Shown here: piece by piece, positions 1 to 16,902 of the stretch
How the letters are laid out: each line of letters opens with the position of its first letter
How positions within the stretch are numbered: position 1 is the stretch's first letter
Source: Diadema antillarum
Taxonomy: Eukaryota
DNA: 64,000 nt
Direction of reading: 5' to 3'
Assembly: GCF_040938485.1 (NCBI RefSeq)
Contig: NW_027272921.1
Span: 62,001-126,000 of the forward strand
Position numbers: made by a program

Positions 1-3000
1 TTTTTTCTTTCGATGCACTTGCAATCAATAAATTCATTTCTTCGCTAATTTCACTCTAGACATGAAATTTCCAAACTTGATTTATAAGGTTTAAAAAAAA
101 AAGTTTCAAAAATTAGATAAAACGATATATGACAATGAACATAATGATAAATGGGTAAATACATAACGGACTATCTACAGATCGACCTCGATTATCCGGC
201 CATGTCGGGACCGGCGCTCATCCGGATAAGCGAATTGGCCGGATAGCTGCCGTCCAAGCTGCCGTCCCAGTGCACTGAGTGGCAGCTAGGCAGGTAGCGT
301 ACCCCGCAACGGTGGTGTAATCTATGCTAGCCTGCGCAAAATTGTAGTCCCTTCTTCACAAAAATAAAGTATATCTTTATGTGAAAATCATACATGTTTT
401 TCCTCATTAGATATGGAGAAACCTATCATGCACATCTTATGAAATTAGTGAAATAGATCCATGAAAAGATGTTAAAGTCACTGTTTTTTTCTCAATTTTT
501 GGATGAAAAAAAAAAGGTCCTTCACTGCGTGAACGCGTCCGGATAATAGAGATTTCCGGTTAAAAGGAGGTCGGATAATCGAGGTCGAACTGCTATATGG
601 TACCAACATGATGGTGTGCGTGCGTAAATGTACAACGTACGACGTCTGATATAATTGTATATGTATAGCCTACTATGACTATCACGACTACAATTACGAA
701 CGTGTATCACAATTTCTTTTAATATAGAAGTGTTTCGTTAGCCGCTTGTCCCGCCTTCACAATCTAAGCAATCCTGATATAACTGATTCAGAAATTGAAA
801 AAAAAAAGTTCTACATAGTATAGACTAATGCTATCATGTCTGCCATTACTACTTTAATTTTCGAGATCCTATTTCTACTCTTCAGCAGTCGTGTATTCTC
901 CAAACTCTCAGCTCCTTGTCGGATTTCCGTTCGCAGAGCTGGAATTACAGTCCTACTTTACACCGAGAAGACGGTTCTCGGTGAGTTTTCATTGAATGTG
1001 TGTGCAACTTGTACAGCAACAACGAAAAAAAAAAAAACCCACACAAACAAAAAACACGCACTTAACACCACCCGAAGTCACGACACAATCTGTATTTGCG
1101 GAGCGCAAATGGATTACCGTAGATTGCTGTAATACATCGCCGCAGTCGCCTACAACACATTTACGTGATGAATGCGAACTCATCTATATTTTTTGAACTC
1201 CATCAAAATGAATAAATAATACCAAACTTTGAACACACGCGGAGTAATGAAACACTTCCTATTATGAGCTGAGCTGCATGTATGAAAAAGAATTGTCAAA
1301 TCACATATGCAGCGTATCAGATTATAAAGTGTCGTGGCTTCTGACGTGTTTCCTTGGTGTTAATGGTATAACCTTCCCACCTGCAACAGTAATGCAATTA
1401 TTTCAATGAATTCTGAGGTTAATGCGATCAGGCTCAACGCAGTGGATCACGAATGAATCGTATTCGGCAATTCCCCTTGAAATATGGATTTCCATGAACA
1501 AAGAGTGGGAGATATTTTAACATTAGCCTCTGTTAGCTCCTTCTTTTCTTCTTTTGCATTAGAGTACGCCTTCGTATAATGCTGGTTCGTCCGTTCAGCC
1601 GAATCTCTGCACCCATTTGAAATGGAGTTACTTGATACACATAACGACATTATCAAGCCTAGTATTAGTGGGCACTGTGGCATTGGCGGTAAAAAAAGAA
1701 TGCGATTCGGAATCGTTTGATATAACACAGATATTGCGATCGGCCTGGAACCAAGGCCCCCCTTTTCCCCAGGAAAAGGAGAGGAAACAGAGAAACAAAG
1801 AGGGAAAAAAAAAACCGCGAGAATTTACAAGCCACTTCGGAGATATAAAGTATCTCATGTGTACATGGGTACAAATGACCTTTCATTTTCCTCGGTTGGT
1901 TAGGCACTTCACTCAATTTAAAGCGACATATAATTCATCAGTTTGACCAACATAGCAATTTATGCAAATTGTATTCAAACAAAGAATGAACCTGCGTAGA
2001 TCACGTGACCAGAACCGTTCGTCAATCAACACTTTGCGAAGCATCCATTTCATTGTGCTATATTGAATGCATTAACATCTTTTATTTTTTTTATTTTGTT
2101 GTTGTTGTTGTTGTTGCTTTGCCAAATACCAGGCTTGCTGTGAGGTGGATGTACTGGAAGGCACCATTAAGAAGGATTACATGAACAAACATTACTTCAC
2201 AGAATTAAGTACAACTTAGTGGATTTAAAAACCAACCTGTCTCTCAGTACAAATGACCTTTTTCTGCTCATGCGCAAACTGGAACCTTGAACTGGCTTAT
2301 CGGTGGTTAACATTTAATCCTTTTTGTGCTAATGAACCAAATATGCACATATTCCACACATATATCTACGTTCAGGAAACCAATGTCGCACACTGAGGGT
2401 TGATAGTCCCATCCTGACTGCCAGAAGTAATGCGCAGAGCGTAATCTTCGGTTTTGTTTTGTTTTGTTTTGTTCTTTTTTGTATTGTGTGTTCGTTGGTG
2501 CAAGTGTTGTGGTTGGGGGGGGGGGGGTGCAAAAAAAAAGAAAATGGGGACGTAAGCTTTACATTTTTTTTTTGTCCCTCTATCTTTCTCCGTCTCCAAA
2601 TGTGACAAGCTGTGAAGGACGCAAATGAAGTTTACTGAACATTGCGTGCGAGGACAACAACATGTTTGGACATTTATCAGCTAATTTCACGCTGTTGATC
2701 AAACACACAAAGGGGGTAAAACAAACGTGTTCATTCGACAGATAACGTTCGGTAAATCTGACCAAGAAGATATAATCAGCTACCCTGATCATGTTTACAT
2801 GTTACTTATCGGGAGCGGCAGATTGCTAAAAATGCACCGGACCCGCCAAAGGTGTATATTATAGCGTATGGTGCTCCTACTGGGACATCCTACGCGACTA
2901 TCGACGTGATCTCTCATCGAGCAGAGGCAATTACATTCACCCACACAATAACATTCACCACATATCTGAAAATATACGAGCTTCCACGGCAAAGAAAACA

Positions 3001-15400: not shown

Positions 15401-16902
15401 CAAGCAAACATGTGCTTGGGTTCTGAAGCACTAAACTGAGATGTCTAACGTTCCTCTACGCTTTAAAGCCATGCTCGGCATCACTCTATCTCTAAGATAA
15501 AATATTGAGACCATTTCATCAAATTACAAGCTGTAATGTATTCAACATTTTCAACATTTTGAATGAAATGCTCTAATTCAAAGCACACATATTCATTGTT
15601 GCCGGCACATTGAAATAGAAAGTGAATTGCAGCAGGGGGAGGTCTTTGCTGTTGTAAGAGTGCTCATCCTGATAACTGATGCTCTCTTTTGTCAAAGCAC
15701 CAGGCTACCACTTGCAGTTAAGCGCATGACTTCTCAACAGTGCTGCACATACCTTCACATGATGTCACAAAATGTGGTAGTCTTTCAGGGTTCATACTCT
15801 TTCTCATTCATTAAATTCCATGACTTTCCATGACCTTTCTAGCCAGAATTCCATGACTTTTCCATGACTATTATACATTTTTATTTTTTTTTTACATGTT
15901 AGACTGAAAATTTGATCTCAAATCAAAGCGAAGCAAAGGACATTGATTATACACATCTCACACAAACAACAGATAAACTTCTAAAATTTGCAATTCCATG
16001 ACTTTCCATGACCTTTTCATGAAAATATCAGTTTTCCATGCCTTTCAGGGCCTGGAAAAGACTAAGCCAAATTCCATGACTTTCAAGGCTTTCCATGACC
16101 TGTATGAACCCTGTCTTTTCTCACCCAGCGATGGCAGCACTACAACTTTTACAAATTCATAACTTTTCAACAGATTGTTTTAACTTTCCTCAAACTTTCA
16201 GTGATAAGTTTTACCAAGAATATTGCTGCATTCTATCAATCCACGTTTTGTTTTTCCATCCCCTTTAGTACAAACATCGTGGGGTCAACATTACAGCAAC
16301 CACACATTATGTCTCAAATGATATAAAAGAAAATAAAGCTATACATTCCTCCAGACAAGATGAAGTAATAAACATACACAGGTGCATACATCTTAAGATT
16401 TACTTTCTTTGTGTGCGGGAAAAACAAACAAACAAACAAACTATATAGTTACTGTTCATCCATATATCAGACACCCAGTACGCAGTATTTGGTGATACAC
16501 CAATATGAAAGGAAAGAAAGCATGAACTCCTTTCTACTCACCAGTCTGTATGCTGAGGTGAATGCACCCAGATAGGCCACGAGACCGGAAGAAATGAGCA
16601 CGTCACCAGTCAGATTGATGTACAGCTGACCAAGATCTTTTGCGCTCTGGCTCCATCTGGTGAAACAGAGATTTGAGGTTGAGAATGTTTTTTTCTTTTT
16701 TTTCTCCCACTGGTCTCCATAGCAACAATACCATGGGACGCAGTCCTATCTGACTGCCTCCGGTTTCCACGTTATCTCTCTCTCCTGATAGAGTCTATGA
16801 TGCTCTTAAACATTCTTCAGCGTTATATGCACTGCTGGTAAACTGAACAAGCTCCACAAATTTTGGGGAAAATTGTGGCTACCATGACAACACTTTCTCT
16901 GA

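What the first reader, a model, noticed from the sequence alone, without database searches (positions are those of the whole stretch)
1..16541. Dynein exon chain stops after the stalk; 16.5 kb with an opposite-strand GPCR replaces the expected AAA5-AAA6 exons
Seen: exon 42 ends in an intact phase-0 GTGAG donor. The longest intron in the window is 3668 nt (21065-24732), yet I found no dynein-like exon in the next 16,541 nt. Established: DNAH7 continues for roughly 1,100-1,200 residues (AAA5, AAA6, C-terminal domain). Inference: (a) a giant intron hosting a nested antisense GPCR, (b) a rearrangement or fission leaving a truncated motor, or (c) an assembly join.
Basis: partly seen in the sequence, partly recalled or inferred. 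Interest (0 to 1): 0.65.

Follow-up and report, generated by a model that had tools for sequence, protein, structure and literature searches.

The report
Long dynein intron hosting a receptor gene
A sea-urchin ciliary motor gene runs out of exons 16.5 kb before the edge of the window, most likely because a very long intron holding a small receptor gene pushes the rest of the gene off the window, which is ordinary.

Summary
A DNAH7-type axonemal dynein heavy chain lies on the minus strand as 42 intact exons (62143 down to 16542). These cover residues 530-2913 of a 4011-aa chiton ortholog. The last exon ends CTG|GTGAGT, phase 0, inside the end of the stalk. About 1,098 residues (AAA5, AAA6, C-terminal domain) are missing in 10 of 10 orthologs. 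No trace of them was found anywhere in the window by tblastn with 160 dyneins, two profile HMMs or motif scans. A control profile found 19 of 19 upstream exons. The only recognisable gene in 1-16541 is an intronless 345-aa class-A GPCR (4874-5908, + strand). It is 98.6% identical to a Diadema setosum protein, so the window comes from a Diadema-like urchin, not from human.

One new point: the 8.6 kb after exon 42 looks like dynein intron (CpG o/e 0.55, GC 0.37). The GPCR sits in a CpG-normal block (o/e about 1.05) that runs from about 7.9 kb to window position 1.

Best reading (about 0.72): an intron of at least 16.5 kb with a nested antisense GPCR, and the remaining exons left of the window. 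An assembly join, a rearrangement or a partial duplicate near 7.9-8.4 kb is not excluded. The flanking contig could not be reached. Interest is low.

The parts
16542..62143 (-). DNAH7-type axonemal dynein heavy chain. 42 exons encode linker, AAA1-AAA4 and the stalk, equal to residues 530-2913 of the 4011-aa chiton ortholog P0359.
   Evidence: Each of 10 DNAH7 orthologs gives 42 tblastn HSPs at 66-73% identity. Proteins named DNAH3 or DNAH12 reach 60% at most. There is no real in-exon stop, and 6 of 2384 ortholog residues are uncovered.
16542..16656 (-).
   Evidence: Sequence read. It matches Pfam PF12777 (MT stalk) positions 296-332 of 344, E 7e-4. The acceptor at 16657-16658 is my inference from the sequence.
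16536..16541 (-). Splice donor GTGAGT after a complete CTG codon (phase 0).
   Evidence: It matches the metazoan GTRAGT consensus (established knowledge). Reading through the donor gives 24 more codons and then a stop.
7901..16541 (-). CpG-depleted, AT-rich tract with no recognisable coding sequence. Its composition is like the dynein introns. I take it as the first 8.6 kb of intron 42.
   Evidence: CpG o/e is 0.55 and GC 0.372 here, against 0.43 and 0.376 in the 41 dynein introns. No ORF shows coding potential above the intron null. There are no Pfam hits and no Rfam hits.
1..7900 (.). CpG-normal block that contains the GPCR and runs to the left edge of the window. The change point is near 7900.
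   Evidence: CpG o/e is 1.10 (1-4873), 1.05 (the CDS) and 0.99 (5912-7900). A two-rate change point falls at about 7900, with rates 1.05 and 0.53 and LLR 34.3. CpG positions are listed.
4874..5911 (+). Intronless class-A (rhodopsin-type) GPCR gene, 345 aa plus stop.
   Evidence: Pfam 7tm_1, E 1.4e-35, full length. Relatives scoring above 300 bits were found only in sea urchins, at 49-60% identity. It is 340/345 identical to Diadema setosum XP_072181188.1. The nearest solved structures are aminergic and melatonin receptors, E about 1e-22 to 1e-24.

Best explanation
The region 1-16541 is the first part of one very long intron (at least 16.5 kb) of a functional DNAH7-type inner-arm dynein gene of a Diadema-like sea urchin.

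How it would work:
- Transcription runs leftwards from exon 42, through about 8.6 kb of ordinary intron sequence.
- It then passes in antisense through a small, intronless, independently promoted class-A GPCR gene. That gene keeps its own CpG-rich (probably unmethylated) chromatin block.
- The donor at 16541 is spliced to an acceptor left of window position 1. About 19-20 further exons there encode AAA5, AAA6 and the C-terminal domain.

Shown:
- the exon chain and its donor;
- the absence of C-terminal exons in the window;
- the GPCR;
- the composition step near 7.9 kb.

Inferred:
- that the missing exons lie off the window on the same contig;
- that the CpG pattern reflects germline methylation domains.
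For: (1) The 42 exons are intact. There is no real in-frame stop, and 6 of 2384 ortholog residues are uncovered.

(2) They are as similar to chiton and coral DNAH7 (72.8% and 72.5%) as those two are to each other (74.2%). The part we see therefore evolves like a working full-length motor. A dynein ring cannot close without AAA5-AAA6 (established knowledge of the family; Pfam layout of the ortholog).

(3) Exon 42 ends in a consensus donor, CTG|GTGAGT.

(4) The 8.6 kb after exon 42 has the CpG depletion and GC content of the dynein's own introns. This fits continued transcription past exon 42.

(5) The GPCR has the usual profile of an internal nested gene: small, intronless, opposite strand. The passages I read in PMC5174743 say that most nested genes lie on opposite strands, that internal genes are small, and that host genes are large with long introns.

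(6) In Ciona, a promoter integrated into an intron of a methylated gene stayed unmethylated (passage in PMC3827831). A CpG-normal island inside a methylated host intron is therefore plausible.

(7) The window has no N. The window's own GPCR protein is recorded on a contig of 291,683 bp, so there is room for the remaining part of the gene.
Against: (1) The gap of at least 16.5 kb is a strong outlier among the gene's 41 other introns: median 719 nt, maximum 3668 nt, z = 5.4 on a lognormal fit.

(2) The CpG-normal block does not return to the depleted state before window position 1. It is at least 7.9 kb long, with 4.9 kb of it upstream of the GPCR start. That is also what the true end of the dynein's transcription unit, a breakpoint or an assembly join would look like.

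(3) No downstream acceptor or exon was seen, because the flank could not be read.

(4) The organism's own full-length dynein model was not retrieved. It was not among the hits of 273-2000 aa and not in the best 120.
Confidence: 0.72

Rival explanations
1. Assembly artefact. Two unrelated loci, or two haplotype or contig pieces, were joined without an N somewhere in about 7.9-8.4 kb. Alternatively the contig simply ends soon after the window. The real gene continues on another piece of the assembly.
For: - There is a sharp composition step at about 7900: CpG o/e goes from 1.05 to 0.53 within a few hundred bases, LLR 34.3.
- The contig is only 291,683 bp, whereas the D. setosum relative sits on a 30.9-Mb scaffold, so this assembly is fragmented.
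- The gap is an outlier among the introns.
Against: - The window has no N.
- No repeat family of at least 60 nt spans or flanks the step. Only short microsatellites are present, so there is no obvious substrate for a misjoin.
- Boundaries between methylated and unmethylated domains are naturally sharp ('black or white') in an invertebrate chordate (passage in PMC3827831).
- A nested gene explains the same step.
Confidence: 0.15
2. Real rearrangement. An inversion, a translocation or a partial segmental duplication has its breakpoint in intron 42. The window then holds a young truncated copy (tail to stalk) that is not, or is no longer, a working motor.
For: - No C-terminal exons occur anywhere in the window.
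- The CpG step near 7.9 kb is a candidate breakpoint.
- A young event would leave exons and donor intact, as observed.
Against: - None of the 42 exons shows any sign of decay, and divergence from other phyla is ordinary. Only a recent event would fit.
- DNAH7-type heavy chains are kept full length in all 10 orthologs examined.
- The prior for such an event is low.
Confidence: 0.09
3. Functional gene fission. The heavy chain is made as two polypeptides, tail-to-stalk from this gene and AAA5-to-C-terminus from a separate gene, as in the split cytoplasmic dyneins of basidiomycete fungi.
For: - Split but working dynein heavy chains exist in Basidiomycota, at three independent split points (passages in PMC4540427).
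- The exon chain here is under normal constraint.
- Reading through the donor would add 24 codons and then a stop, and an AATAAA lies 656 nt downstream at 15885.
Against: - The donor is a consensus splice site.
- One AATAAA in 2.5 kb is no more than the window's average density of 1.4 per kb per strand.
- Two searches found no report of a nested gene in DNAH7 or of a split axonemal heavy chain.
Confidence: 0.03

Closest known systems
Nested (intronic) gene pairs of animal genomes: a small internal gene on the opposite strand inside a long intron of a large host gene (passages in PMC5174743; abstract of PMC3814207 seen in a search listing)
   Same: - A large multi-exon host (a dynein with more than 42 exons).
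- An internal gene that is small, intronless and on the opposite strand.
- A candidate intron that is by far the longest in the host.
   Different: The downstream host exon was not seen, so nesting is inferred and not shown. The other 41 host introns are short (median 719 nt). The internal gene sits in a CpG-normal block of at least 7.9 kb.
DNAH7-type inner-arm axonemal dynein heavy chains (orthologs P0359 chiton, P0361 coral, P0357 lungfish, P0373 Xenopus, P0409 milkfish)
   Same: 66-73% identity over 42 exons. The domain order is the same: DHC_N2 linker, AAA1-AAA4, stalk. Identity to DNAH7-named proteins is higher than to DNAH3- or DNAH12-named proteins.
   Different: AAA5 (PF12781), AAA6 (PF03028), AAA_lid_11 and Dynein_C, 1,098 residues in all, are not in the window. 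The first 530 or so residues also lie off the window, on the right.
Split cytoplasmic dynein heavy chains of Basidiomycota (Ustilago dyn1/dyn2, Schizophyllum dhc1/dhc2; PMC4540427)
   Same: A heavy chain whose coding sequence stops inside the motor. It is the only known precedent for a working dynein made from two genes.
   Different: The fungal splits lie at aa 1180, between AAA1 and AAA2, or within AAA4, not after the stalk. They concern cytoplasmic dynein, not axonemal dynein, and fungi, not animals. Here the break is a splice donor, not a stop codon with a gene end.
Mosaic (gene-body) DNA methylation domains of invertebrate deuterostomes (Ciona, PMC3827831; the sea urchin compartments of Bird et al. 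1979 are cited there)
   Same: A CpG-depleted block covers a transcription unit and lies next to a CpG-normal block around a tissue-type gene, with a sharp boundary.
   Different: Only the sequence footprint (CpG o/e) was measured here, not methylation. Whether the depleted state resumes left of the GPCR is unknown.

Membership tests
DNAH7-type axonemal dynein heavy chain | Best similarity to DNAH7 orthologs rather than to other heavy-chain paralogs | tested here: met
   The 10 best full-length queries reach 65.8-72.8% identity. 8 of them are source-named DNAH7 or DNAH7-like and 2 are unnamed records. DNAH3- and DNAH12-named proteins and fungal proteins reach 60% at most (names).
DNAH7-type axonemal dynein heavy chain | Linker, AAA1-AAA4 and stalk in canonical order, with an open reading frame | tested here: met
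   42 colinear HSPs cover residues 530-2913 of P0359. There is no real in-exon stop.
DNAH7-type axonemal dynein heavy chain | AAA5, AAA6 and the C-terminal domain present in the same gene | tested here: not met
   Not met within the window: searches are all negative, with a positive control of 19 of 19 exons. Beyond the window this cannot be tested with these tools, so a complete gene is neither shown nor excluded.
Nested gene in a host intron | Internal gene lies wholly between two consecutive exons of the host | not testable with these tools
   The upstream host exon (exon 42) and its donor are present. The downstream exon would lie left of window position 1. No tool gives eukaryotic flanking sequence.
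Nested gene in a host intron | Internal gene is a complete, independent transcription unit (own start, own stop, small) | tested here: met
   A 345-aa ORF from ATG to stop gives a full-length 7tm_1 match. Its length is the same as its D. setosum relative and close to the other urchin relatives, 331-343 aa. The promoter and the UTRs are not mapped.
Class A (rhodopsin-type) GPCR | Seven-helix 7tm_1 domain with the conserved microswitch motifs | tested here: met
   7tm_1 positions 1-260 of 260, E 1.4e-35. CWIP and NPLLY can be read in the sequence. The DRY position reads CRA: the R is kept and the D and Y are not. The motif names are recalled, not taken from a call.
Split dynein heavy chain (basidiomycete type) | The N-terminal part ends in a stop codon and a gene end, and the C-terminal part is a separate gene with its own start | tested here: inconclusive
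   The coding sequence ends at a consensus splice donor, not at a stop. One AATAAA lies downstream, no more than the background density. A separate C-terminal gene could not be looked for.

The most novel reading that the evidence does not exclude
In Diadema the DNAH7 inner-arm dynein gene is really broken after the stalk. Either it is a functional fission, with a separately encoded AAA5-AAA6-C-terminal polypeptide completing the ring, or it is a conserved truncated tail-to-stalk protein. The GPCR locus would then be its true downstream neighbour. The first case would be the first split axonemal dynein heavy chain, and the first split dynein in an animal.
Probability: 0.03. Interest if true: 0.8.

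Novelty: new member of a known kind. Interest (0 to 1): 0.15.

Why it matters
If the main reading is right, little follows. It is one more case of a small antisense gene inside a long intron of a large gene, and a reminder that a fixed 64-kb window can cut a gene of 100 kb or more.

Two modest points have some use:
- The CpG footprint gives a sequence-only way to follow a transcription unit past its last visible exon in an urchin genome. It also flags about 7.9-8.4 kb as the one place in the window where an assembly or rearrangement check is worth making.
- If nesting is confirmed, the GPCR's CpG-normal island inside a CpG-depleted host would be a clean natural example of a nested gene keeping its own chromatin state.

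Only the unlikely fission reading would matter for dynein biology.

Tried and rejected
(1) Pfam scan of whole-frame translations of 1-8400. I then used six-frame ORFs with HMMs built locally from fetched dyneins.

(2) Retrieving the organism's own dynein gene model.
- The exon-13 search with lengths 'longer' covered only proteins of 273-2000 aa and gave no 100% hit.
- The 50%-representative search gave only distant full-length dyneins.
- A search with the C-terminal third of the chytrid protein P0173 as carrier returned chytrid and vertebrate proteins among its best 120, and no Diadema protein.

(3) Other genes in 1-16541.
- A codon-usage scan of 349 ORFs found nothing above the intron null. 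The exceptions were frames overlapping the GPCR, the GC-rich 4.0-4.2 kb stretch, and a 34-codon segment at 198-299 (-).
- 10 ORFs were sent to Pfam. 9 had no match, and 1 had two matches below the family cut-off, inside a (TG)n-rich ORF.
- Rfam gave nothing.

(4) Apparent continuation past the donor. Some vertebrate orthologs align 7-9 residues beyond it (to 16518-16524). On inspection this is chance similarity of the read-through (SRKEF against QTKEW), not a longer exon.

(5) A retrocopy origin of the GPCR block. I rejected it because the CpG-normal block is at least 7.9 kb, far longer than a GPCR mRNA, and I saw no poly(A) tail at its right end.

(6) A poly(A) signal as evidence for a gene end after exon 42. 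One AATAAA lies at 15885, within the background density, so it is uninformative.

Every database search with window dynein sequence used one single exon.
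Full report
**Source and limits.**
- The window has no N, so there is no masked or gap stretch to respect.
- It is not human. The only complete gene in the region has relatives scoring above 300 bits in sea urchins only, and it is 340/345 identical to a Diadema setosum RefSeq protein. I therefore take the window to come from a Diadema-like echinoid.
The step of joining the 42 exons into one model and searching with it was left out.
The contig to the left of the window therefore stayed unchecked.

**The dynein gene.**
- Stop-to-stop ORFs on the minus strand carry dynein peptides from about 62 kb down to 16.5 kb.
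- The largest exon (46651-47115, 155 aa) hits proteins named dynein heavy chain 7, at up to 74% identity.
- Full-length relatives came from the representative library and from a carrier search with the C-terminal third of a chytrid dynein.
- tblastn of all 160 fetched dyneins longer than 2190 aa against the window shows that the 10 best are DNAH7 orthologs. They include chiton P0359 (72.8%), coral P0361 (72.5%), lungfish P0357 (71.2%), Xenopus and milkfish. Each gives 42 exon HSPs. Proteins named DNAH3 or DNAH12 reach 60% at most.
- The 42 HSPs are colinear and cover residues 530-2913 of the 4011-aa P0359. Only 6 of those 2384 residues are uncovered.
- The one stop codon inside an HSP lies in a three-residue overrun into an intron.
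- On P0359, Pfam places the stalk at 2574-2919, AAA5 (AAA_9) at 2948-3169, AAA6 (Dynein_heavy) at 3413-3527, AAA_lid_11 at 3562-3701 and Dynein_C at 3708-4007. The window's chain therefore ends six residues before the end of the stalk model.

**The break.**
- The last exon reads ...LVAYLGAFTSAYRL and ends CTG|GTGAGT. The donor is at 16541-16536 and the exon ends in phase 0.
- All 10 orthologs continue with Q.Q..EW...C...IPCS.DFSL...LG.PVKIR.WNIA, and have 1097-1098 residues left.
- A few vertebrate queries align 7-9 residues past the donor. This is chance similarity of the read-through peptide.

**Is anything of the missing third in the window? No.**
- 160 of 160 long dyneins have no HSP lying wholly below 16500.
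- A profile of 11 distant C-terminal thirds, run with all filters off against all 3300 six-frame ORFs of at least 12 aa in the whole window, has a best E of 0.25. That hit is in the AAA1 exon.
- A profile of the 10 ortholog C-termini has a best E of 1.5.
- tblastn with word size 2 gives best E values of 0.33 and 0.51, scattered on both strands.
- Motif regexes find nothing.
- The method is sensitive enough. The same kind of profile, built from the 1100 residues before the break, recovers 19 of 19 exons (exons 24-42) with E from 1e-10 to 1e-31.

**How unusual is the gap?**
- On a lognormal fit, a gap of at least 16541 nt lies at z = 5.4. Real intron distributions have heavier tails, and an intron that hosts a gene is long by construction. 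The figure shows an outlier, not an impossibility.

**What is in 1-16541?**
- One gene is recognisable. It is an intronless ORF at 4874-5908 (+) of 345 aa with a full-length 7tm_1 match, E 1.4e-35.
- Its close relatives are urchin proteins carrying mixed automatic names: 'moody-like', 'dopamine D2-like' and 'melatonin receptor 1A-like'.
- The nearest solved structures are aminergic and melatonin receptors, at E 1e-22 to 1e-24. I call it an echinoid orphan class-A receptor.
- A codon-usage scan of 349 ORFs finds nothing above the intron null. The exceptions are frames overlapping the GPCR, a GC-rich stretch at 4.0-4.2 kb just upstream of it, and a 34-codon segment at 198-299 (-).
- Of 10 ORFs sent to Pfam, 9 had no match and 1 had only matches below the family cut-off. 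Rfam gives nothing.
- There are only short microsatellites, and no repeat family of at least 60 nt.

**A new observation: a CpG step.**
- CpG o/e is 0.43 in the 41 dynein introns (GC 0.376) and 0.55 in 7901-16541 (GC 0.372).
- It is 0.99 in 5912-7900, 1.05 in the GPCR coding sequence and 1.10 in 1-4873.
- A two-rate change-point model puts the switch at about 7900, with LLR 34.3. The CpG positions show it happening within a few hundred bases.
- In invertebrate deuterostomes, methylation is mosaic and follows transcription units, with unmethylated promoters, intergenic DNA and tissue-specific genes (passages in PMC3827831). CpG depletion is its footprint in the sequence.
- Read this way, the dynein's methylated domain runs on for 8.6 kb past exon 42. 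That fits transcription continuing into an intron.
- The GPCR sits in a block of the unmethylated type, at least 7.9 kb long, which does not end inside the window.
- The same paper reports that a promoter inserted into an intron of a methylated gene stayed unmethylated, which favours a nested island. It also reports that some intergenic regions between convergent genes are methylated, which would allow a gene end. The step is therefore informative about where to look, but it does not decide the question.

**Weighing the readings.**
- For a giant intron with a nested gene:
  - The 42 exons are intact, and their divergence from chiton and coral (72.8% and 72.5%) is the same as chiton against coral (74.2%).
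  - The donor matches the consensus.
  - The tract after exon 42 is intron-like.
  - The GPCR has the textbook nested-gene profile: small, intronless, opposite strand. About 71-73% of Drosophila nested genes lie on the opposite strand (PMC5174743 passages).
  - The contig has 291,683 bp, so there is room for the remaining exons.
- Against it:
  - The intron is an outlier in size.
  - The CpG-normal block is not closed on the left.
  - I could not see exon 43, and I could not retrieve the organism's own gene model.
- My estimates:
  - nested giant intron, 0.72;
  - assembly join or contig break, 0.15;
  - real recent rearrangement or partial duplicate, 0.09;
  - functional fission, 0.03.

**Comparison with what is known.**
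- The arrangement works like the ordinary nested gene pairs of animal genomes. Membership cannot be completed, because the downstream host exon is off the window.
- The gene is a DNAH7-type heavy chain by similarity and by domain order. The defining C-terminal half-ring was tested in the window and not found, so I do not claim a complete gene from this window alone.
- Split dynein heavy chains are known only from Basidiomycota, at other positions and in cytoplasmic dynein (PMC4540427 passages).
- Three searches found nothing in print about this locus: 'Diadema' with 'dynein heavy chain' (5 papers, none with either term in title or abstract; listing only); 'DNAH7' with 'nested gene' (0 papers); and 'axonemal dynein heavy chain' with 'split' and 'encoded by two' (0 papers).

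**Verdict.** Its most likely explanation is ordinary: a long intron with a nested antisense GPCR, cut by the window edge. Interest is 0.15. The one thing worth a follow-up is a quick check of the left flank and of read support across about 7.9-8.4 kb.

Noticed in passing
window 7900-8400 (blocks 1-7900 and 7901-64000): There is a sharp step in CpG o/e. It is about 1.05 to the left, around the GPCR, and about 0.5 to the right, over the whole dynein gene and the 8.6 kb beyond its last exon. TpG+CpA is raised in the depleted part. It looks like a boundary between an unmethylated and a methylated germline domain.
   Followed up: partly
window 23009-23781 and 45402-46181: An interspersed element of about 770 nt, with a G-run of about 25 near its start, occurs in two dynein introns. 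The copies lie in the same orientation and are 72-80% identical (families D2, D3, D5, D9).
   Followed up: no
window 44327-44652, 50778-51227, 54358-54811, 59092-59292: A short repeat family has direct and inverted copies in at least four dynein introns, 72-91% identical (D4, D7, D10, D11, I2, I4-I6, I8). It is probably a SINE- or MITE-like element.
   Followed up: no
window 37815-38391: An inverted repeat with 169-nt arms, 87% complementary, 239 nt apart, ends about 50 nt from the dynein exon at 38442-38684 (I1).
   Followed up: no
window 44713-44988 (-): The exon carrying the AAA1 P-loop region is 100% identical over 92 residues to the chiton ortholog P0359. It is the most conserved exon of the chain.
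   Followed up: no
window 4874-5908 (+), residues about 121-123: The GPCR has CRA where class-A receptors usually have DRY. CWxP (CWIP) and NPxxY (NPLLY) are kept. This is read from the sequence; the motif names are recalled.
   Followed up: no
window 198-299 (-): A 34-codon segment at the left edge has codon usage above the 99th percentile of the intron null (19.0 against 16.0). It has no dynein similarity and no Pfam match. It may be chance, or a piece of an unrecognised exon.
   Followed up: partly
window 16542-16544 (-): The residue after the conserved ...YR at the exon end is L (CTG) here and Q in all 10 orthologs. CTG is one base from CAG.
   Followed up: no
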